From the NCBI GenBank assembly GCA_001797275.1, contig MGOY01000036.1, forward strand, positions 36,361 to 100,360: a stretch of DNA of 64,000 bases, written 5' to 3'. The position numbers and the translations under genes were made by a program. The DNA is from Clostridiales bacterium GWF2_38_85. GTDB lineage: Bacteria > Bacillota > Clostridia > Oscillospirales > CAG-382. The notes under the pieces were generated by a model. The model was given only the letters and a program-made list of their open reading frames with translations, did not search any database and was not told where the DNA came from. Position 1 is the stretch's first letter; the number at the start of each line of letters is the position of its first letter. Positions 22,142 through 39,382 of this stretch are shown piece after piece.

Positions 22142-22537
22142 ATGATTAAAGCCCTTAGTCGGAAAAATCAGATAATGCTGATTATAGTTTTATCTGCAGT
22201 ACTGATTTGTGTAATAACAGTCATAGCCTTTAGATTTTTATCCGCACCGGTCACTGTTAAGATAACAGATTCGGAAAATGCTAAAATTACTGTGAATATT
22301 AACATTCCCGATGCCAGATTTGAAAATGTTTCGATAATCTGTCTGAAGCCGGGTTATACAGTCGATAGCATTGCTGCCAGCAAAGATGGTATCTGCGACA
22401 TCAGGCAAATAACCCTCGACAAGGATGGAGGAGCAAAAATTGATTTAACTCTTCCCACAAATGAATCCGGTGAATATATTATTCAGATCGGTACAGATAA
22501 GAAACTATATTCAACCAAATTCAAATTGGCAAACTGA
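22142..22537 (+). CDS. hypothetical membrane-anchored protein (131 aa)
   Basis: N-terminal TM helix (IMLIIVLSAVLICVITVIAF) and a beta-rich ectodomain. It lies immediately upstream of the GH27 gene. The RBS is weak. Confidence 0.5.
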   Translation: MIKALSRKNQIMLIIVLSAVLICVITVIAFRFLSAPVTVKITDSENAKITVNINIPDARFENVSIICLKPGYTVDSIAASKDGICDIRQITLDKDGGAKIDLTLPTNESGEYIIQIGTDKKLYSTKFKLAN

Positions 22538-22544
22538 GAAAGGA

Positions 22545-25500
22545 ATGAGAAGAATGAAATCAACTGTAAAAATACTAAGTTACATATTGACATTACTGTT
22601 TATAATTCAAATTATTCCATTTTGCGTATATGCTGAAACCAGCCAGAGTAATACAAATGTTCAAACGGAAATCGAATACCGTAAAACTCCAATTATGGGT
22701 TGGTCTTCTTGGAACTATTTTCATACAGATATAAGTGAAGATGTAATCATCTCGCAGGTGGACGCTATTGTCAACCTCGGACTCGATGATGTCGGATATG
22801 ATTATGTAAATATCGATGACGGCTGGCAGAACGGTCGTGATGACGATGTTGTACATCATCAGGTTGATAAATTTCCGAACGGTATGAAATATATCGCTGA
22901 TTATGCACATAACCTCGGAATCAAAGCCGGTATGTACACTGATGGCGGTGAAACAACCTGCGGATGGATAACAGATGAAGATACAACCGATCCGAAAGTC
23001 GGTCTTTACGGACATGACGAACAGGATCTCAGAATGTACTTTGTCGACTGGGGTTATGACTTCATAAAGGTTGACTGGTGTGGTGGTGCGGCTCTTGAAC
23101 TTAGCACCCAAACACGATATACCGAAATCGGTGAGGCTATAAACAACATCGAAAAAGAATTGAACAAAGATCTCATATATAATGTCTGTTGCTGGGGGTT
23201 CCCAGGCGAATGGGTTGTCGATGTTGCTGATTCATGGCGAACAGGCGGTGATATTGCAGCGAATTTCGATTCAATACTCACTCAGATAGACAATATTAAA
23301 GAACTTACGCAATACGCAGGTCCCGGTCATGTAAACGACCTTGATATGCTCCAGGTCGGCAACGGTATGAGTTACGAGGAAGACAAAACGCACTTCTCAA
23401 TGTGGTGTATGATGTCATCACCACTCCTTATCGGCACAGACCTGACTACAATAACAGATCAAGCGCTGAGTATTCTGAAGAATGAGGAAATAATAGCACT
23501 TGATCAGGATTCTGCCTGCCTTCAGGCAACGGTTGAAGTTGAAAATGAAAATTATGAAGTCTGGGTCAAACCACTCGGCTCGTCAACTTCATCAACAAAA
23601 GCTGTTGCATTGCTTAACCGTTCCGACAGCGAACAGGTTATTACAGTTAACTGGGCAGATCTTGGGTTGTCGGGTGTTATGGTTGCTCGTGATTTATGGC
23701 TGCACCAGGATATAGTTACAGGCGACAGCTATACTGCAACCGTTCCCGCACACGGTATCGTGGTTTTAAAGGTCAGCGGAAATGCAGTTATCGAAGATCC
23801 TGATTTTCTGCTTCAGAGTAAACTGCAGAAAACAGAAACCGAAATAAATCTTACCGAAGCAGGAAAAAGCGACTGGGCTTGTTACGGTATCGATGAAAAT
23901 AAAAAAGGTCCAAGCACAATCGATGAAATTGCGATATCGGGTGCAGAAACATCGGAAGCTTCTAAAGGAACAGTTCAATTTAACTGGACAAACGGAACAA
24001 ACAATTCAGAAGGCTCAACAAAATCCGCTTTAAAGCTGTCAGGCAGTGATACCTCCGCTGCTATTACCTTCCTGCCAAAGAAGACTAAACAAACAGCAAG
24101 CATTTATCTGAGCGGCAAAGGAAGATTACAAATAAGTTCAATACTGAATGGTAAAATAACAACCGAAGAATTTAATCTTGAAAATGGAACCTCCTATTGT
24201 TACAGTGTAAATTTTGCTTCAGGCAGCACATCAGGAATGACTGTTACCCTGACACCTGCAGAAGGAACGCAAGTATTTCTCGGTGCATCTTCGTTGATGA
24301 ACATGAAAACAGAATCGGGCGAAGTCCTATTATCCGATACATATATATATGAGTCGCCGTTGGATATTTCACTTGCCACAGCATCGGAATGGATTAGCTT
24401 CAGCGGTGAAAACGGCAATATAGCTGCTCAGAAAGGTGATTCATTATTTGATTTTATTACATCCGAAAATGCAGTAATAATTTCTGCGGACAGTAAAATC
24501 GAGTTTTACTCTGGAAGCAAAAAATATAATAAAGGTGCAATGCTGACATCTAAAGGCAGCAGTATTACACTACAGACAGCCAATAATGAGTTGATCAGAA
24601 AAATCAACATATATTTCAGCGTCAGTAATGCATCTGTAAAAATCATAACAAATGCCGGTGATTCTATTGATATTGTTGCCGGAGCCACCGAGCAGAGCAA
24701 GATGTTAACCATATGGTATCAGAGCAATGAACCGCTGACAGTAGAATTCAAACTTAGTTCTAAGTTCAGTGATGACGGATACTTCAAACTTGATGCTGCA
24801 ACAATCAGCGGTGAAAATGAATACTATCTGTCAGAATCCGATACTTCTGTTGACGGTAATAAGCTGATTGTTTCAGCCAAATCCATCAATACCGAAAACT
24901 TCTGGGCAGACAAGGTAAACTTCATTGCTGCTCTATATAATGAAAATAATATTTACTGCGGTTCAAGCATATCCACTGCTTCGATAGACACAACAATGTC
25001 AGACATATCTATTGATGTTGAACTGTCCGATGGGTTCTCGGGATATGTCAGAACATATCTCTGGGGTGGAAATGAGTTCAATATCCCTCTTTCGGATTCG
25101 CGCGAAACCTTTGTCAGCACTGTTACCTCCGTCAGTGACAGTTACGAAAAGTACATTGGCCCGATAACAGCAAAGGATATGGTTGAAAAAGGTGCAATAC
25201 TGCTTGATGTTCGTACGGAAACCGAATACATTGTCGGACATATTGACGGAAGCATCAACATACCTCATACAGAAATCATAACCAGAGCCGGAGCAATGCT
25301 TCCGGATAAGAATGTTGTTATAATAACCTATTGCAGTGCGGCGAAACGCAGTGTCCAGGCACAGCAGATGCTGTCATCCCTCGGTTATAATAATGTATAT
25401 ATTCTCGGTAGCATGAGCAACTGGGATACGAATATATCGATTGAATTCGATGCCGATTCGATGCTGCTGGTTCAGGCAGGCGATAATATTAAATTGAAAT

Positions 25501-26126
25501 ATACCGAATACAGAAACGACAGTATAGAAATATTCTGTTCTGCCGGTAAGGATTCGGATTTTGATGATGCTATACCGTATGATGAATTTATTATCCCCGA
25601 CAGTGATGACGACTATATAGCTGTCAAGGCTTATATCGCATACAACGGAAAAGTTTATGCGGAATGCGAAAAGCAGTTCATCAATTACAAGGAAGATATA
25701 ATCGACATATATGCATCAGACCTTGATTGGGTAAGCTCAAGTGTCGGTTGGGGTACAATTCATAAAGACAAATCAATTGACGGAAACCCACTTAGAATTT
25801 CAGGTGTACCCTATCCGAAAGGAATAGGCACTCACGCGAACTCAAAAATAAAGATTGCAATTCCCGAAGGAGCAACCAGATTTCTTGCTGTTGTCGGCTA
25901 TGATGACGAGGTATTGGGAAATGCTACGGATAATAAAATGCAGTACAGCGTTTATCTTGATGATGAGCTTTACTGCGAGTCCGAAATTTTGAAGGTTGGC
26001 AGAGTATATGTTTTCGATGTAATCATACCGGAAGGAACCGAAACCATAACCTTGAAAACAGATCAGGCTTATGACAACAACTGGAGCGATCATGCCGACT
26101 GGGCAATATCCGGATTTATAAAATAA
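22545..26126 (+). CDS. secreted multidomain alpha-galactosidase (GH27 catalytic domain, beta-sandwich repeats, rhodanese-like domain, C-terminal NPCBM domain)
   Basis: Signal peptide, then the GH27 core (TPIMGWSSWNYF..YVNIDDGWQ..KVDWCGG..DLDMLQVG). A rhodanese domain lies at ~25158-25430 (LLDVRTETEY..GHIDGSINIP..TYCSAAKRS). An NPCBM-like C-terminus (DLDWVSSSVGWGTIHKDKSIDGNPL..GIGTHANS) follows. The start is either 22545 or 22554. Confidence 0.85.
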   Translation: MRRMKSTVKILSYILTLLFIIQIIPFCVYAETSQSNTNVQTEIEYRKTPIMGWSSWNYFHTDISEDVIISQVDAIVNLGLDDVGYDYVNIDDGWQNGRDDDVVHHQVDKFPNGMKYIADYAHNLGIKAGMYTDGGETTCGWITDEDTTDPKVGLYGHDEQDLRMYFVDWGYDFIKVDWCGGAALELSTQTRYTEIGEAINNIEKELNKDLIYNVCCWGFPGEWVVDVADSWRTGGDIAANFDSILTQIDNIKELTQYAGPGHVNDLDMLQVGNGMSYEEDKTHFSMWCMMSSPLLIGTDLTTITDQALSILKNEEIIALDQDSACLQATVEVENENYEVWVKPLGSSTSSTKAVALLNRSDSEQVITVNWADLGLSGVMVARDLWLHQDIVTGDSYTATVPAHGIVVLKVSGNAVIEDPDFLLQSKLQKTETEINLTEAGKSDWACYGIDENKKGPSTIDEIAISGAETSEASKGTVQFNWTNGTNNSEGSTKSALKLSGSDTSAAITFLPKKTKQTASIYLSGKGRLQISSILNGKITTEEFNLENGTSYCYSVNFASGSTSGMTVTLTPAEGTQVFLGASSLMNMKTESGEVLLSDTYIYESPLDISLATASEWISFSGENGNIAAQKGDSLFDFITSENAVIISADSKIEFYSGSKKYNKGAMLTSKGSSITLQTANNELIRKINIYFSVSNASVKIITNAGDSIDIVAGATEQSKMLTIWYQSNEPLTVEFKLSSKFSDDGYFKLDAATISGENEYYLSESDTSVDGNKLIVSAKSINTENFWADKVNFIAALYNENNIYCGSSISTASIDTTMSDISIDVELSDGFSGYVRTYLWGGNEFNIPLSDSRETFVSTVTSVSDSYEKYIGPITAKDMVEKGAILLDVRTETEYIVGHIDGSINIPHTEIITRAGAMLPDKNVVIITYCSAAKRSVQAQQMLSSLGYNNVYILGSMSNWDTNISIEFDADSMLLVQAGDNIKLKYTEYRNDSIEIFCSAGKDSDFDDAIPYDEFIIPDSDDDYIAVKAYIAYNGKVYAECEKQFINYKEDIIDIYASDLDWVSSSVGWGTIHKDKSIDGNPLRISGVPYPKGIGTHANSKIKIAIPEGATRFLAVVGYDDEVLGNATDNKMQYSVYLDDELYCESEILKVGRVYVFDVIIPEGTETITLKTDQAYDNNWSDHADWAISGFIK

Positions 26127-26142
26127 GGTTTGTACAACATTA

Positions 26143-26170
26143 AAGGCTTTCGGAAATTTCCGAAAGCCTT
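26143..26170. terminator. bidirectional terminator hairpin between convergent GH27 and carB-dapF genes
   Basis: Perfect 12-bp stem AAGGCTTTCGGA / TCCGAAAGCCTT with loop AATT. Confidence 0.65.
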
Positions 26171-26174
26171 CTGC

Positions 26175-29100
26175 TTAATACTCAGCTACTCCATTGTAGA
26201 TAAGGTCTGCATTTCCGGTGAGCAGAACTCTGTTGTCTGTATAGTTGACAATAAGATCGCCGCCCTTGAGCTTGACGGTTATATCCTCACCCTTTGCGCA
26301 AAGTCCGTTCAACACTGCTGCTATCGCTGCCGCACAAGCGCCTGTTCCGCAAGCCCAGGTTTCACCGTTGCCGCGCTCCCAGACACGCATTTTGATTGTA
26401 TTTTTGTTAACAACCCTGATAAATTCGGTGTTGACTCTTTCGGGAAACAACGGTGAATTTTCAAACTGGGTTCCGACAGCTTCAACATCAACCGCATCAA
26501 CTCTGTCGCAGAACACAACCGCATGGGGATTGCCGACAGAAACACAAGTGATTTTATACTGCTTGCTGTCGATCTCGGCTTCCCTTGCAATGACATTATC
26601 ACCCTCAAGAAGCACCGGGATTTTTTTCGGATTCAGCTCCGCTTTTCCCATATCAACGCAAACAGATTTTACCTTACCGTCGAAGGTGTACAGCTCCAGC
26701 GATTTAATGCCGCTTGCCGTTTCTATTGTCATCGTTTCTTTTTTTACAATAGCGTTGTCGTACAAATATTTGCCGACACAGCGAATGCTGTTACCCGCCA
26801 TTCTGCCCTCGCTGCCGTCCTTGTTGAACATGCGCATTTTTGCATCGGCAATCCCGCTGTTCTCAATCAGAACAATTCCGTCGCCTCCGATTCCATAGTG
26901 GCGGTCTGCAAAGGTTATACTCAGTGATTCCGGACAGCTAATTTTGTTATCCCGGTTGTCGATATAGATATAATCGTTCCCCGTACCCTGCATTTTTGCA
27001 AAATGGATTTTCTGGCGTTCTATACGCATATTGTTGATATCGACCAACTCGGTATTATGCTCTGTATATCTGCTTGCAATTATATCAGCAAGCGAGTTGG
27101 CGGTGTCAATGGAGGTTATGCAGGCAATAGAAAGCTGTAAAGCACGTCTGTGGATTCTAATGAAGTCAATTACAGCGTTTTGTCTGCTTCCGCCGATGAA
27201 TACGATAAACGAGAGCTTGCCTTCATTCAGAAGACGAAGCGTCGTCTGCGCATTGTCGTCCTTGGGGACTATCTCAACATCAATTCCAAGCTCGCTGACA
27301 ACCCTTGCCGTGCCCGGTGTTGCGTACAACTTCATCCCTATATCATCCAGCTTCTTTGCAAGTCCAACGATTTCGAGCTTGTCCTGACCACCTGCGGTAA
27401 TAAACACGCCGCCCTTGTGACCGCTGCGCTGTATATCAATTTTATAACCTGCTGAAATCAGACCCTTGTACAACGCTTCTTCGAGGTTTTTTCCAAGTCC
27501 GAGGACTTCACCTGTTGACTTCATCTCAGGTCCGAGCGATGAGTTGACATCAAGCAGCTTCTCAAACGAGAACACGGGAACCTTAACAGCAACATATGGT
27601 GGTGTCTTGTACAAGCCTGTACCAAAGCCAAGCTCTGCGAGCGGCATTCCAACCATAACCTTTGATGCAAGCTCGACCATAGGTACTCCGGTTACCTTGC
27701 TGATATAAGGGATTGTTCTTGATGCGCGCGGATTGACTTCTATAACATAAAGCTCATTTTGATAAATCAGATATTGAATATTGACCAAACCCTTTGTTCC
27801 GAGCGATAACGCAAGGAATTCCGAGCATTCGATAACCTTTTTCATCAGCTTATCATTTATCTTGTATGGCGGATAAACAGCGATTGAGTCGCCGCTGTGA
27901 ACTCCTGCCCTCTCGATATGCTCCATAACACCGGGTATGAGAACATCCTTGCCATCCGAAATAACATCGACCTCAAGCTCTGTTCCCATAAGATACTTAT
28001 CAACAAGCACAGGATTCTCTATTCCCTGCGAAAGAATTATCTTCATATACTGCTCAACGCTAAAATTATCGTGAGCGATTGTCATGTTCTGACCGCCGAT
28101 TACATACGAAGGACGCAACAAAACAGGATAACCGAGGCTGTTCGCCGCTGATAATGCCTCGTCTGTTGTCATAACCGAAAGACCGGATGGTCTCCGGATT
28201 CCGATTTTACCAAGCAGAGCATCAAATTTTTCTCTGTCCTCAGCATTATCAATACTTTCGGCTGATGTACCGAGAATTTGTATTCCCTTGTTATGCAAGA
28301 ATTTTACGAGCTTTATTGCTGTTTGTCCACCGAACGCAACAACTACGCCGACCGGATTTTCAACAGCGATGACATTCATAACATCTTCCTGTGTCAACGG
28401 TTCAAAGTACAGTCTGTCGGCTGTGTCGAAGTCGGTTGAAACGGTTTCGGGGTTATTGTTTATAATAATGACCTCATAGCCTAAGTCCTGCAATGCCCAC
28501 ACGCAATGAACGCAGGAATAGTCGAACTCGATTCCCTGTCCGATTCTGATCGGTCCCGAGCCAAGAACTATAATACGTTTCTTACCGCTGTCGGGTATAG
28601 CTCTCGCTTCGCAATATTCGTCATATGTTGAATAGAAATACGGTGTTGCAGCGTCAAATTCCGCACCGCAGGTATCTACCATCTTGTAGACAGCATGTCT
28701 TTTATTTTGTATCTTCTGTCCCGATATTCTCTCAATTGCCTTATCGGTAAATCCGAGCTTTTTGCCTTTTAAATAAAGCTCGTTAGTCAGTTTTTCAGCT
28801 TTAAGCTGTTTGTGATAATCTACCAGCTTTTTAATCTTTGAGATAAACCACTTGTCAACCTTAGTAATCCTATTTATTTCTCCAACCGATATCCCCTGCA
28901 TCAGTGCCTCAAATATGGTAAACAGACGGGTGTCATTAAGTCCTTTTAAGCGTTCGAGAATATCATCCTTGCTGTCCGACACTTTTTCGAGTGTATCAAA
29001 TGAAATTTCTGCACCTCTGACTGCCTTCATCAAAGCAGATTCAAAAGTCTGTGCAATCGACATAACCTCACCTGTTGCCTTCATCTGTGTGCCTAAAGTG

Positions 29101-30209
29101 CGGTTTGCGGTAACGAACTTATCGAAGGGCCATTTGGGAAACTTGACAACAATATAGTCAAGAGTTGGCTCGAAGCAGGCAAAGGTTTTGCCTGTTACCT
29201 CGTTAGGTATCTCATCAAGTGTCATACCAAGAGCGATTTTTGTCGCTACCTTTGCAATCGGATAGCCTGTTGCTTTACTTGCAAGCGCAGAAGAACGTGA
29301 AACACGTGGGTTGACCTCAATAACAGAATACTCGAAGCTGTCGGGGTTGAGCGCAAACTGACAGTTACAACCACCCTCAATACCAAGTTCGGTGATAATA
29401 TCAAGTGATGCCTTACGCAACATCTGAAGCTCCTTGTCGGCAAGCGTTACAGCAGGAGCAATAACTATGCTGTCACCGGTATGAATACCCACTGGATCAA
29501 AGTTTTCCATGCTGCATACTGCGATGACATTACCTATCGAGTCGCGCATAACCTCAAACTCGATTTCCTTCCAGCCGTAGATGTATTTTTCAACAAGCAC
29601 CTGGTTGATCGGCGACATCATAAGTCCGTTCTTTGCAACGGTTACAAGCTCGTCCATGTTGTATGCAACACCGCCGCCCGAACCGCCGAGAGTAAACGCC
29701 GGGCGGATTATAACCGGAAATCCGATATTTGTTGCAGCTTTAATAACTTCATTTATATTAACGGCAATCTCAGACGGTATAACCGGCTGACCGATTTTTT
29801 GCATTGCTTCCTTGAACAGCTGTCTGTCCTCTGCTTTGTTAATAGCATCGGCATTAGTGCCAATAAGACGGACATTATGCTTTGCAAGAAAGCCTTCCTT
29901 GTTCAGCTTCATTGCAATAGTAAGTCCGGTCTGCCCGCCAAGTCCGGCAAGCAGGCTGTCGGGTTTTTCTTTTAAAATAATACGCTTTACGGTTTCCACT
30001 GTAAGCGGTTCAAGATATATTTCATCGGCAAGTGCATTGTCAGTCATTATTGTCGCAGGGTTTGAGTTGACAAGCACTGTATTTATGCCTGCCTTCTTCA
30101 ACACACGGCAAGCCTGTGTGCCTGCATAATCAAACTCGGCTGCCTGACCAATTACGATTGGCCCTGAGCCGATAACAAGCACTTTTTTTATACTTTTATC
30201 AATAGGCAT
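26175..30209 (-). CDS. carB: carbamoyl-phosphate synthase large subunit fused in frame to diaminopimelate epimerase (CarB-DapF, 1344 aa)
   Basis: Residues 1-~1060 are full-length CarB (two ATP-grasp halves plus an MGS-like domain). The last 284 aa (MRIERQKIHFAKMQGTGNDY..GNSIRC..ACGTGACA) are a complete DapF with both catalytic Cys. There is no stop between them; the junction ATG is at 27027-27029. Confidence 0.9.
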   Translation of the reverse strand: MPIDKSIKKVLVIGSGPIVIGQAAEFDYAGTQACRVLKKAGINTVLVNSNPATIMTDNALADEIYLEPLTVETVKRIILKEKPDSLLAGLGGQTGLTIAMKLNKEGFLAKHNVRLIGTNADAINKAEDRQLFKEAMQKIGQPVIPSEIAVNINEVIKAATNIGFPVIIRPAFTLGGSGGGVAYNMDELVTVAKNGLMMSPINQVLVEKYIYGWKEIEFEVMRDSIGNVIAVCSMENFDPVGIHTGDSIVIAPAVTLADKELQMLRKASLDIITELGIEGGCNCQFALNPDSFEYSVIEVNPRVSRSSALASKATGYPIAKVATKIALGMTLDEIPNEVTGKTFACFEPTLDYIVVKFPKWPFDKFVTANRTLGTQMKATGEVMSIAQTFESALMKAVRGAEISFDTLEKVSDSKDDILERLKGLNDTRLFTIFEALMQGISVGEINRITKVDKWFISKIKKLVDYHKQLKAEKLTNELYLKGKKLGFTDKAIERISGQKIQNKRHAVYKMVDTCGAEFDAATPYFYSTYDEYCEARAIPDSGKKRIIVLGSGPIRIGQGIEFDYSCVHCVWALQDLGYEVIIINNNPETVSTDFDTADRLYFEPLTQEDVMNVIAVENPVGVVVAFGGQTAIKLVKFLHNKGIQILGTSAESIDNAEDREKFDALLGKIGIRRPSGLSVMTTDEALSAANSLGYPVLLRPSYVIGGQNMTIAHDNFSVEQYMKIILSQGIENPVLVDKYLMGTELEVDVISDGKDVLIPGVMEHIERAGVHSGDSIAVYPPYKINDKLMKKVIECSEFLALSLGTKGLVNIQYLIYQNELYVIEVNPRASRTIPYISKVTGVPMVELASKVMVGMPLAELGFGTGLYKTPPYVAVKVPVFSFEKLLDVNSSLGPEMKSTGEVLGLGKNLEEALYKGLISAGYKIDIQRSGHKGGVFITAGGQDKLEIVGLAKKLDDIGMKLYATPGTARVVSELGIDVEIVPKDDNAQTTLRLLNEGKLSFIVFIGGSRQNAVIDFIRIHRRALQLSIACITSIDTANSLADIIASRYTEHNTELVDINNMRIERQKIHFAKMQGTGNDYIYIDNRDNKISCPESLSITFADRHYGIGGDGIVLIENSGIADAKMRMFNKDGSEGRMAGNSIRCVGKYLYDNAIVKKETMTIETASGIKSLELYTFDGKVKSVCVDMGKAELNPKKIPVLLEGDNVIAREAEIDSKQYKITCVSVGNPHAVVFCDRVDAVDVEAVGTQFENSPLFPERVNTEFIRVVNKNTIKMRVWERGNGETWACGTGACAAAIAAVLNGLCAKGEDITVKLKGGDLIVNYTDNRVLLTGNADLIYNGVAEY

Positions 30210-30273
30210 ATTTTATAACCATTCCTTTCACGGAAGTACATGAATAGAAAGGCAGATATTATCTGCCTGTTAA

Positions 30274-31332
30274 TCATATCATTTTTATAAATCTGTCGAA
30301 CAAAAACTCTGTATCAAGCGGTCCGGCACAAGCTTCAGGGTGAAATTGCACTGAAAACGCATTTTTATCTGTATAGTCGATTCCCTCGCAGCTGCTGTCA
30401 TTACCGTTTGTGTATCTCAGAACTGCACCATCAGGCAAGCTGTTGTTATCAACTGCATAACCATGATTCTGTGTTGTTATGAATGTTCTGCCACCGACCA
30501 AATCCTTGACAGGATGATTGACTCCACGATGACCGTAGCGAAGCTTTGAGGTTGTCGCACCGTTTGCAAGTGCGAGCAGCTGATGTCCAAGACAAATTCC
30601 GAATATAGGCTTTTTGCTGATAAACTTCTTCAACTCTGTTATACAATCTGTGTAAACAGCAGGATCACCAGGTCCATTAGACAGCATTATACCTTCAATA
30701 TTATCAGCGAGAATTTCTTCTGCTTTAGTATTTTGCGGATAGATGATTACCTTACAACCGCGTTTTGTCAATTCCCTCTCGATGTTCAACTTTGCACCGT
30801 AATCGATAAGTCCGACAGTGTGTTTTACTTCACCTTCGGGTAATGCAATCGTTTTCTCTTGTACTGTAACATACGGCAGTACATTTTCTATTTTATAGTT
30901 ATTAAGCTCTTCAAACGAAACGCTGTCCGGGTCTGCTGTTATACAAGCGTTCATAACGCCTTTTTCACGAATCATCTTGGTCAGATAGCGTGTATCGACA
31001 TCATAGACACCGGGGATATTGTTAGCTTTTAAGTAGCTATCTAAATTACCTTCACAGCGGAAGTTTGATGGAGCATCGCAAAAATCACGAACCACATACC
31101 CCTTTGCAAAGCATGCTCTGCTCTCAAAATCCTCGCTTATCATGCCGTAGTTGCCGATAAGCGGAAATGTCTGAACAATAATCTGACCGTAATAGCTGGG
31201 GTCTGTCAGTGTTTCGATATAACCACCCATACCTGTCGTGAATACAATTTCACCGATTGTATCAACATCAGCACCAAAGCTTTTACCGTAAATTGTTTCA
31301 CCGTTCGCAAGAACTATATATACTTTTTTCAT
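30274..31332 (-). CDS. carA: carbamoyl-phosphate synthase small (glutaminase) subunit
   Basis: CPSase_sm N-terminal domain and a GATase1 triad region (GICLGHQL..HG..QFHPE). Confidence 0.92.
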   Translation of the reverse strand: MKKVYIVLANGETIYGKSFGADVDTIGEIVFTTGMGGYIETLTDPSYYGQIIVQTFPLIGNYGMISEDFESRACFAKGYVVRDFCDAPSNFRCEGNLDSYLKANNIPGVYDVDTRYLTKMIREKGVMNACITADPDSVSFEELNNYKIENVLPYVTVQEKTIALPEGEVKHTVGLIDYGAKLNIERELTKRGCKVIIYPQNTKAEEILADNIEGIMLSNGPGDPAVYTDCITELKKFISKKPIFGICLGHQLLALANGATTSKLRYGHRGVNHPVKDLVGGRTFITTQNHGYAVDNNSLPDGAVLRYTNGNDSSCEGIDYTDKNAFSVQFHPEACAGPLDTEFLFDRFIKMI

Positions 31333-39309: not shown

Positions 39310-39337
39310 ATTATACACTATTTTAAATGCTTGTCAA
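39310..39337 (-). promoter_or_regulatory. sigma-A promoter of the arg operon (TTGACA-16-TATAAT on the minus strand)
   Basis: Minus strand reads ACTTGACAAGCATTTAAAATAGTGTATAATAG, about 55 nt upstream of the argG ATG. Confidence 0.55.
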
Positions 39338-39344
39338 GTATATT

Positions 39345-39382
39345 TTATGAATATTATGCAGTTGTAATGCATATTATACATA
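39345..39382. promoter_or_regulatory. candidate tandem ARG boxes (ArgR/AhrC operator)
   Basis: TATGAATATTATGCAGT followed by TGTAATGCATATTATACA, each resembling TGAAT-W4-ATTCA half-palindromes. They lie just upstream of the arg -35. The match to the consensus is imperfect. Confidence 0.35.

What the first reader, a model, noticed from the sequence alone, without database searches (positions are those of the whole stretch)
26175..30209. In-frame fusion of carbamoyl-phosphate synthase large subunit with diaminopimelate epimerase (CarB-DapF, 1344 aa)
Seen in sequence:
- The last gene of the arg operon is one uninterrupted ORF.
- A complete CarB (~1060 aa, ending ..YTEHNTELVDINN) runs straight into MRIERQKIHFAKMQGTGNDY.., which is a complete 284-aa DapF.
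- That DapF keeps both catalytic cysteines (GNSIRC and ACGTGA).
- No stop, RBS or spacer separates the two parts (junction ATG at 27027-27029).

Established knowledge: CarB and DapF are normally separate proteins in unrelated pathways (arginine/pyrimidine versus lysine/meso-DAP peptidoglycan) and share no intermediate.

Inference:
- This is either a genuine bifunctional polypeptide, or stop-codon loss with internal re-initiation at the DapF Met.
- Either way, meso-DAP supply, which matters for cortex peptidoglycan in a spore former, becomes tied to ArgR-controlled arginine operon expression.
Basis: partly seen in the sequence, partly recalled or inferred. Interest (0 to 1): 0.6.

Follow-up and report, generated by a model that had tools for sequence, protein, structure and literature searches.

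The report
CarB fused to one-cysteine DapF module
The last gene of this arginine operon really does encode carbamoyl-phosphate synthase joined to a diaminopimelate-epimerase domain. The fusion is old and found in about half of related anaerobic Clostridia, but here the epimerase part has lost one of its two catalytic cysteines. It is therefore probably a conserved ligand-binding add-on, not the cell's working epimerase.

Summary
The 1344-aa ORF (26175-30209, minus strand) is real: a full CarB runs without stop, spacer or ribosome-binding site into a full-length DapF-like domain.

The first catalytic Cys (Cys73 in H. influenzae numbering, the C of the C-G-N motif) is Ala1138 here. The Cys in "IRC" is not catalytic. 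Cys217 and every other pocket residue are kept.

The fusion is not an accident:
- It occurs in 60 of 121 sampled genomes of the order.
- The fused DapF domains form one clade.
- Cys73 was lost at least twice inside that clade, about five times by parsimony.
- The Cys-less module is under strong purifying selection (dN/dS about 0.05).

Of 57 genomes with a Cys-less module, 55 also have another DapF homologue or DAP dehydrogenase. Two-cysteine fusions can be the only route to meso-DAP and often sit next to dapL.

This genome has its own dapF-dapL pair, a second dapF next to murE, and a second CPS in a pyr operon. Meso-DAP supply is therefore not tied to the arginine operon.

My best reading, which is inference, is that the module is a non-epimerising DAP-pocket domain serving the arginine-specific CPS. 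No paper describes the fusion. This scan has met it before on other genomes.

The parts
26175..30209 (-). carB::dapF-like ORF, 1344 aa plus TAA stop
27030..30209 (-). CarB part, residues 1-1060: two ATP-grasp halves, oligomerisation domain and MGS-like allosteric domain
   Evidence: NF003671 at 1441 bits and TIGR01369 at 1408 bits; Pfam CPSase_L_D1/D2/D3 and MGS
27114..27374 (-). MGS-like allosteric domain of CarB, residues 946-1032
   Evidence: PF02142. It is the least conserved part, 52.5% mean identity against 71.7% for CarB as a whole.
27006..27065 (-). Junction, residues 1049-1068: the conserved CarB tail (NTELVDIN) runs into a short basic stretch, then DapF strand 1
   Evidence: No stop, no SD-like motif, fixed length. 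Met1061 is M in 78 and L in 34 homologues. AF2 pLDDT is 58-72 here.
26178..27005 (-). DapF-like module, residues 1069-1344
   Evidence: TIGR00652 at 277 bits. Best PDB hit is 2otn DapF, E 3e-75. AF2 pLDDT is mostly 83-97, 78 in the first block.
26796..26798 (-). Codon GCG = Ala1138, at the position of catalytic Cys73
26349..26351 (-). Codon TGC = Cys1287, the retained catalytic Cys217 equivalent
30274..31332 (-). carA, CPS small subunit, directly upstream
   Evidence: NF009475 at 437 bits
31356..39253 (-). argG-argH-argC-argJ-argB-argD-argF, the rest of the operon
   Evidence: NCBIfam equivalogs for each gene
39310..39380 (-). Likely operon promoter: TTGACA at 39337-39332, TATAAT at 39315-39310. 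Two tandem palindromes sit just upstream: TGTATAATATGCAT (39380-39367) and TGCATAATATTCAT (39360-39347). They may be ARG boxes.
   Evidence: Read from the sequence. The ARG-box reading is inference only.

Best explanation
This is the arginine-operon copy of carbamoyl-phosphate synthase large subunit, carrying an anciently fused domain derived from DapF.

Origin (inferred from gene order and trees): carB came to lie next to a dapF-dapL unit and the stop codon was lost. That gave a truly bifunctional two-cysteine enzyme, which still exists in some lineages.

Later history: in lineages that had another route to meso-DAP (a stand-alone dapF or DAP dehydrogenase), the fused module lost catalytic Cys73 repeatedly. 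The window's protein belongs to the largest such clade (Cys73 to Ala).

What the module is now: it cannot run the two-base thiol/thiolate epimerisation and is not the cell's DAP epimerase. Yet it keeps Cys217 and the whole DAP-binding pocket under strong purifying selection.

Mechanism I commit to (inference, not shown): the module still binds DAP or a close analogue. It acts as a ligand-binding or regulatory appendage placed right after the allosteric domain of the arginine-specific CPS.
For: Shown:
- Ala replaces Cys73. In the 112 closest full-length homologues the position is A in 103 and G in 9, never C. Cys217 is kept in all 112.
- Pocket residues N64, N75, N157, H159, N190, E208, R209, C217, G218 and T219 are invariant or nearly so in 66 Cys-less fused forms.
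- No compensating Cys appears at clade-specific positions.
- dN/dS is 0.05 to 0.06 in three pairs of Cys-less modules. In one genome pair the fused module has dN 0.100 against 0.192 for the stand-alone DapF.
- The DapF part is as conserved as CarB: 69.6% against 71.7% mean identity.
- Fused domains form one clade nested in canonical DapF, with support 93 and 98*. Cys73 was lost at least twice, 5 times by parsimony. The window protein sits in an all-Cys-less clade of 56 rows with support 100*.
- Position 73 in fused forms is A, G, S, T, Y or F where it is not C.
- Of 57 genomes with a Cys-less fusion, 41 have another DapF homologue. Of the 16 without one, 14 have Ddh. Of 16 genomes with a two-Cys fusion, 5 have neither.
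- dapL lies directly downstream of the two-Cys fusion in L116, L117 and L119, and downstream of no Cys-less fusion.
- The own genome has dapF-dapL, dapF2-murE, no Ddh, and a second CPS in a pyr operon.

Precedent: E. coli DapF(C73A,C217A) has no epimerase activity yet binds and activates RppH (PMC4227774).
Against: - No ligand binding or regulation has been measured.
- Invariant Cys217 is not needed for mere binding and hints at chemistry.
- Two Cys-less genomes showed neither another DapF nor Ddh. G015 is 86% complete. G058 has 130 contigs, and its congeners do have dapF.
- Ser at position 73 in some lineages could keep weak activity.
- N11 is Asp in 13 of the 66 Cys-less forms, so the pocket is not fully static.
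- The junction is modelled with low confidence, so no fixed docking on the allosteric domain is shown.
Confidence: 0.5

Rival explanations
1. The module is still an enzyme, using single-base chemistry through Cys217. It could be a slow water-assisted epimerase, or a stereospecific eliminase or isomerase acting on DAP or a related diamino or ureido acid from arginine metabolism.
For: Cys217 and all pocket residues are invariant in Cys-less forms. The DapF fold hosts other chemistries: an O-ureido-serine racemase (7vdy) is among the PDB hits, E 6e-38. From my own knowledge, one-Cys relatives of two-Cys racemases can act as dehydratases.
Against: Position 73 varies freely (A, G, S, T, Y, F), which does not look like a tuned new catalytic residue. 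No new conserved acid or base appears. No substrate can be named.
Confidence: 0.25
2. The module is a structural or oligomerisation scaffold. A DapF-type dimer at the C-terminus would hold two CPS large subunits together through their allosteric ends, independent of any ligand.
For: E. coli DapF elutes as a dimer (PMC4227774). The module follows the allosteric domain with almost no linker. It is under strong purifying selection.
Against: A pure scaffold would not need an invariant ligand pocket and Cys217. Dimerisation of this module was not tested.
Confidence: 0.13
3. The fused module is a working DAP epimerase, so the protein is bifunctional.
For: The DapF HMM score is well above cut-off. 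Two-Cys fused relatives do appear to be the only DapF in five genomes.
Against: Cys73 is Ala. The two-base mechanism needs both thiols (PMC12039745). The genome has two other two-Cys dapF genes, next to dapL and murE. Cys-less fusions are almost never the only route to meso-DAP.
Confidence: 0.07
4. The fusion is an assembly or sequencing artefact, or a recent stop-codon loss with the two proteins made separately.
For: None found.
Against: The fusion is in 60 of 121 genomes of the order and in thousands of database proteins of about 1343 aa. Independent contigs are identical across the junction. The junction has a conserved length, no SD-like motif in 0 of 49 loci, and a non-start codon in 9 of 49.
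Confidence: 0.01

Closest known systems
Arginine-specific carbamoyl-phosphate synthase CarAB of Firmicutes (the Bacillus subtilis arrangement: carAB in the arg operon, pyrAA/pyrAB in the pyr operon; from my own knowledge)
   Same: There are two CPS sets. One is in the arg operon (window) and one is in a pyrC-carA-carB-pyrK-pyrD-pyrF-pyrE operon on contig C14. CarB is full length with all four Pfam domain types.
   Different: It carries an extra 284-residue DapF-derived module after the allosteric domain. In 10 of 19 related genomes with the fusion, the fused protein is the only CarB.
Canonical diaminopimelate epimerase DapF (EC 5.1.1.7; PDB 2otn, 9mro, 1gqz/2gke, 4ijz)
   Same: Same family by HMM (277 bits) and by sequence to solved structures (E 3e-75). 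Same length, Cys217 and the DAP-pocket residues.
   Different: Cys73 is Ala. The module is covalently fused to CarB. It is not the genome's route to meso-DAP. It evolves more slowly than the stand-alone DapF in one compared genome pair.
Two-cysteine CarB-DapF fusions in related Clostridia (for example L116/L117, L119, L106, G025)
   Same: Same architecture and junction, and the same clade of DapF domains.
   Different: They keep Cys73. dapL lies directly downstream in three of them. They are not preceded by argF. They can be the only DapF in genomes without Ddh.
E. coli DapF as a catalysis-independent activator of RppH (PMC4227774, PMC6061791)
   Same: A DapF scaffold acts on another enzyme without needing its cysteines.
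   Different: That interaction is non-covalent, the partner is an RNA pyrophosphohydrolase, and that DapF is still an active epimerase. No link to CPS is known.

Membership tests
CarB, carbamoyl-phosphate synthase large subunit (NF003671 / TIGR01369) | Full-length match above the curated cut-off | tested here: met
   1441 bits (cut-off 599), model positions 1-1050 of 1058. TIGR01369 gives 1408 bits (cut-off 1027).
CarB, carbamoyl-phosphate synthase large subunit (NF003671 / TIGR01369) | Two ATP-grasp halves, an oligomerisation domain and an MGS-like allosteric domain | tested here: met
   CPSase_L_D2 twice, CPSase_L_D1 twice, CPSase_L_D3 and MGS
CarB, carbamoyl-phosphate synthase large subunit (NF003671 / TIGR01369) | Adjacent glutaminase subunit carA | tested here: met
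   carA at 30274-31332, 437 bits
DapF, diaminopimelate epimerase (TIGR00652, EC 5.1.1.7) | HMM match above cut-off over the whole model | tested here: met
   276.9 bits (cut-off 114.65), positions 1-268 of 270
DapF, diaminopimelate epimerase (TIGR00652, EC 5.1.1.7) | First catalytic cysteine (Cys73 in H. influenzae and E. coli, Cys75 in Anabaena), in the C-G-N motif | tested here: not met
   Ala1138 aligns to this Cys in 2otn and 9mro. The paper names Cys75-Gly76. The position is A or G in all 112 closest homologues.
DapF, diaminopimelate epimerase (TIGR00652, EC 5.1.1.7) | Second catalytic cysteine (Cys217) | tested here: met
   Cys1287 in ACGTGA
DapF, diaminopimelate epimerase (TIGR00652, EC 5.1.1.7) | DAP-pocket residues N11, N64, G74, N75, N157, H159, N190, E208, R209, G218 and S/T219. 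Their roles are recalled from the H. influenzae structures and mapped here by motif. | tested here: met
   All are present in the window protein. They are invariant or nearly so in 66 Cys-less fusions, except N11, which is N in 53 and D in 13.
DapF, diaminopimelate epimerase (TIGR00652, EC 5.1.1.7) | Acts as the organism's LL-DAP to meso-DAP step | tested here: not met
   The own genome has dapF-dapL and dapF2-murE elsewhere. Of 57 genomes with a Cys-less fusion, 55 have another DapF homologue or Ddh.
DapF, diaminopimelate epimerase (TIGR00652, EC 5.1.1.7) | Epimerase activity | not testable with these tools
   Needs an enzyme assay or a complementation test

The most novel reading that the evidence does not exclude
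The Cys73-less DapF module is an enzyme-derived allosteric sensor. It would bind the cell-wall and lysine precursor diaminopimelate without turning it over, and tune carbamoyl-phosphate synthesis accordingly. That would couple peptidoglycan-precursor status to arginine and pyrimidine supply across a large clade of anaerobic Clostridia. The repeated loss of Cys73 would mark the switch from enzyme to sensor.
Probability: 0.3. Interest if true: 0.8.

Novelty: new variant of a known kind. Interest (0 to 1): 0.6.

Why it matters
- CPS is a textbook allosteric enzyme, and DapF is a textbook two-thiol epimerase and an antibiotic target.
- A fusion of the two sits in about half of the sampled genomes of a major order of anaerobic Clostridia. 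Databases name it only 'CarB', and I found no paper on it.
- The family contains both states. Two-Cys fusions look bifunctional. Cys-less fusions have lost epimerase chemistry at least twice but stay under strong selection.
- That makes it a natural series for studying how an enzyme becomes a regulatory or binding domain.
- It also warns against automatic annotation in both directions. These genes hide a DapF domain under a CarB name. Pathway reconstructions that count the Cys-less module as DapF would wrongly infer a complete DapL pathway.

Tried and rejected
- Complex prediction of the allosteric domain (residues 930-1057) against the DapF module (1066-1344) returned 'no answer', score 0.00. 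It is not evidence either way.
- The look-up of sequencing runs listed no RNA holder, so expression and transcript ends could not be examined.
- The laid contigs probably come from the source sample, a groundwater metagenome, so they are not independent.
- The search of protein representatives returned mostly fragments for the fused family and added little beyond showing both C and A/G forms.
- The Rfam scan of the window gave no hit, so no riboswitch or leader was found for the operon.
- A simple E. coli-type ARG-box pattern was not enriched: 12 matches against 15.6 expected, none upstream of argG. The two palindromes upstream of argG were found by eye only.
- Internal start hypothesis: rejected.
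- Compensating cysteine elsewhere in the module: none found.
- Five literature searches found no description of the fusion.
- 'Spore former' was not checked.
Full report
**The observation**

The ORF at 26175..30209 on the minus strand is uninterrupted and encodes 1344 aa.
- NCBIfam places a complete CarB on residues 1-1048 (NF003671, 1441 bits). It places a complete DapF model on residues 1068-1342 (TIGR00652, 277 bits, cut-off 115).
- Pfam finds CPSase_L_D1, D2 and D3, MGS and DAP_epimerase.
- The gene closes a minus-strand operon: argG-argH-argC-argJ-argB-argD-argF-carA-carB::dapF.
- The junction reads ...NTELVDINN-M-RIERQKIHFAKMQGTGNDY..., with the ATG at 27027-27029.
- Contigs that Logan assembled from three runs cover 26100-30300 in one piece with no difference. 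They are most likely from the source groundwater sample, so they are not independent.

**The error in the observation**

It is not.
- In DapF the first catalytic cysteine is the C of C-G-N. This is Cys73 in H. influenzae and E. coli, and Cys75 followed by Gly76 in Anabaena (PMC12039745).
- In the HMMER alignments to solved DapFs, this Cys ('sCgn' in 2otn, 'mCgn' in 9mro) aligns to Ala in the window protein, 'mAgn'. The residue is Ala1138, codon GCG at 26796-26798.
- The second catalytic Cys (Cys217 equivalent, Cys1287) is present.
- So are the pocket residues mapped by motif: N11, N64, G74, N75, N157, H159, N190, E208, R209, G218 and T219.

**Is the fusion real and conserved?**

Yes.
- I searched residues 1020-1344 among proteins of 739-2352 aa. 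Of 8000 scored candidates, 7023 had E <= 0.001. The best 120 are almost all about 1343 aa and carry both CPSase and DAP_epimerase Pfam domains. Where a source names them, the name is only 'carbamoyl-phosphate synthase large subunit'.
- Among 41 relatives, 19 carry the fused frame.
- Among 121 genomes of the order at 90% completeness or better, 60 do.
- Named records are uncultured Eubacteriales, Oscillospiraceae, Acutalibacteraceae and Christensenellales from guts, rumen and groundwater.
- The junction has a fixed length.
- Met1061 is Leu in 34 of 112 homologues.
- The junction codon is CTG, CTT or TTG in 9 of 49 loci, and none of the 49 has an SD-like tetramer before it or before the conserved K-M.
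- No promoter-like site lies within 1.2 kb upstream on that strand.

Separate translation of the DapF part is therefore not supported.

**The cysteine across the family**
- In the 112 closest full-length homologues, position 1138 is Ala in 103 and Gly in 9, never Cys. Cys217 is kept in all 112.
- Across 80 species-level loci plus relatives, I count 66 Cys-less and 15 two-Cys fused forms.
- A further 50 fused genes from the order sample show A, G, S, T, Y or F at this position, or C.
- In trees of the DapF domain, the fused forms are one group nested inside canonical DapF of the same order (SH-aLRT 93; 98*).
- Two-Cys forms are scattered among the early branches. Loss of Cys73 needs 5 changes by parsimony and at least 2 on well-supported branches.
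- The window protein lies in a 56-row clade that is entirely Cys-less (support 100*).
- All 54 full-length stand-alone DapF homologues in that alignment keep Cys73.

**Selection**

The Cys-less module is not decaying.
- Its mean identity to the window protein is 69.6%. That compares with 71.7% for CarB and 52.5% for the allosteric domain.
- dN/dS is 0.05 to 0.06 in three pairs. dS is 1.3 in the closest pair and saturated in the others, so these are rough values.
- In the genome pair G021/G008, the fused module has dN 0.100 against 0.192 for the stand-alone DapF of the same two genomes.
- All pocket residues other than Cys73 are invariant or nearly so in the 66 Cys-less forms. The exception is N11, which is Asp in 13.
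- No new conserved Cys or obvious acid or base distinguishes the Cys-less clade.

**Who supplies meso-DAP?**

In this genome:
- A canonical two-Cys dapF (contig C6) overlaps dapL (TIGR03542, 501 bits).
- A second two-Cys paralogue (contig C5) lies directly upstream of murE.
- No Ddh was found.

Pooling the relatives, the order sample and five named genomes:

| Fusion type | Genomes | Another DapF homologue | No other DapF, but Ddh | Neither |
|---|---|---|---|---|
| Cys-less | 57 | 41 | 14 | 2 |
| Two-Cys | 16 | 3 or more | 6 | 5 |

- The two Cys-less genomes with neither are G015 (86% complete) and G058. G058 has 130 contigs, its fused gene lies at a contig end, and two congeners have a stand-alone dapF.
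- Among the two-Cys genomes, G043 and G101 carry only an unclassified or partial second DapF match.
- In the five two-Cys genomes with neither, the fused module is the only visible route to meso-DAP.
- Fisher's exact test gives p = 0.005. Related genomes are not independent, so this is only indicative.

**Gene order tells the same story**
- dapL lies within about 60 nt downstream of the two-Cys fusion in L116, L117 and L119, and 1.6 kb downstream in L127. It lies downstream of none of the Cys-less fusions.
- argF precedes carA in 27 of 53 fused loci, none of them two-Cys.
- carB and a stand-alone dapF are adjacent but separate in G012 and G022.

The simplest history, which is inference, has three steps:
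1. carB came to lie next to dapF-dapL.
2. A stop codon was lost, giving a bifunctional enzyme.
3. Where another DapF or Ddh existed, Cys73 was lost repeatedly and the module was kept for another role.

**The CarB side**
- This genome has a second CPS in a pyrC-carA-carB-pyrK-pyrD-pyrF-pyrE operon. The window's copy is therefore the arginine-operon paralogue.
- In 10 of 19 related genomes with the fusion, the fused protein is the only CarB. The CPS part is clearly functional.

**Mechanism**

What is shown: the module cannot use the thiol/thiolate pair that the epimerase mechanism requires (PMC12039745). It is not needed for meso-DAP supply, yet it is strongly conserved with an intact pocket.

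What I infer: it binds DAP or a close analogue. It serves the CPS as a regulatory or binding appendage located right after the allosteric domain.

A precedent for a catalysis-independent DapF acting on another enzyme exists. E. coli DapF(C73A,C217A) has no epimerase activity but still binds and activates RppH (PMC4227774).

Rivals:
- Single-base chemistry through the invariant Cys217.
- A dimerising scaffold.
- A residual epimerase.

The AF2 model of residues 930-1344 folds confidently (pLDDT 88.4, pTM 0.72). The junction is weak (pLDDT 58-72), so it does not fix the position of the module.

**Regulation**
- A near-consensus promoter lies upstream of argG (TTGACA, 16 nt, TATAAT), with two tandem A/T-rich palindromes just before it.
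- An ArgR homologue exists on contig C25, at 118 bits, below the cut-off of 130.
- ArgR control is plausible but not shown.

**Novelty**
- Five literature searches found no description of the fusion.
- This scan has noted the same fusion on at least 35 other genomes. Several follow-ups also reported the cysteine loss. I re-derived that independently here.
  - the Ddh and dapF complementarity count;
  - the dapL-versus-argF contrast in gene order between two-Cys and Cys-less fusions;
  - the variety of residues at position 73;
  - the context of this genome's own dapF-dapL, dapF2-murE and pyr-operon CPS genes.

I rate it a new variant of a known kind, of moderate to high interest.

Noticed in passing
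Own genome contig C5 (L003:1438-2355 minus strand, with murE at L003:3-1481 minus strand): A second stand-alone DapF paralogue lies directly upstream of murE. It has both catalytic Cys, Cys79 changed to Ser, and an 'AC[GA]TGC' motif. Its relatives form a separate 15-row clade (98*) and occur in many genomes that also have Ddh. Its role next to the DAP-adding ligase is unexplained.
   Followed up: partly
G012:C34:11256-15306, G022:C88:3248-7224 and G102:C29:3621-5330: In G012 and G022, an unfused carB is followed directly by a separate canonical dapF. In G102, a two-Cys fused gene is followed directly by another stand-alone dapF. The carB-dapF linkage therefore goes beyond the fusion itself.
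   Followed up: partly
L080 and L088 (open frames of 1508 and 1512 aa); G099, G081, G077 and G030 (1432-1547 aa): Some fused frames are 90-200 aa longer at the N-terminus. In L080 and L088 a CarA-like segment lies just upstream in the same region. These may be longer fusions or merely open upstream frames.
   Followed up: no
L144 (G001, same genus): argF is followed directly by carB::dapF with no carA between them, unlike the window.
   Followed up: no
window 22461-26126 (+): A 1221-aa ORF is convergent with the fused gene, with only a 48-nt gap. Only a rhodanese-like domain near residues 895-993 was recognised by NCBIfam. The rest is unassigned.
   Followed up: no
window 39310-39380 (-): A near-consensus sigma-70 promoter lies upstream of argG, preceded by two tandem 14-nt palindromes 20 nt apart (TGTATAATATGCAT and TGCATAATATTCAT). 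These may be ARG boxes.
   Followed up: partly
G120, G113 and G060 (L166, L171, L197): Fused modules here have Tyr, Phe or Thr at the Cys73 position. G060 and G029 also have Ser at Cys217. All of these genomes lack a stand-alone DapF. G120, G113 and G060 have Ddh; G029 does not.
   Followed up: partly
G057:C45:2206-3180 and G117:C1:548506-549330: The Ddh of G057 has an in-frame TAA and the stand-alone dapF of G117 has an in-frame TAG. These could be pseudogenes, sequencing errors or recoding.
   Followed up: no
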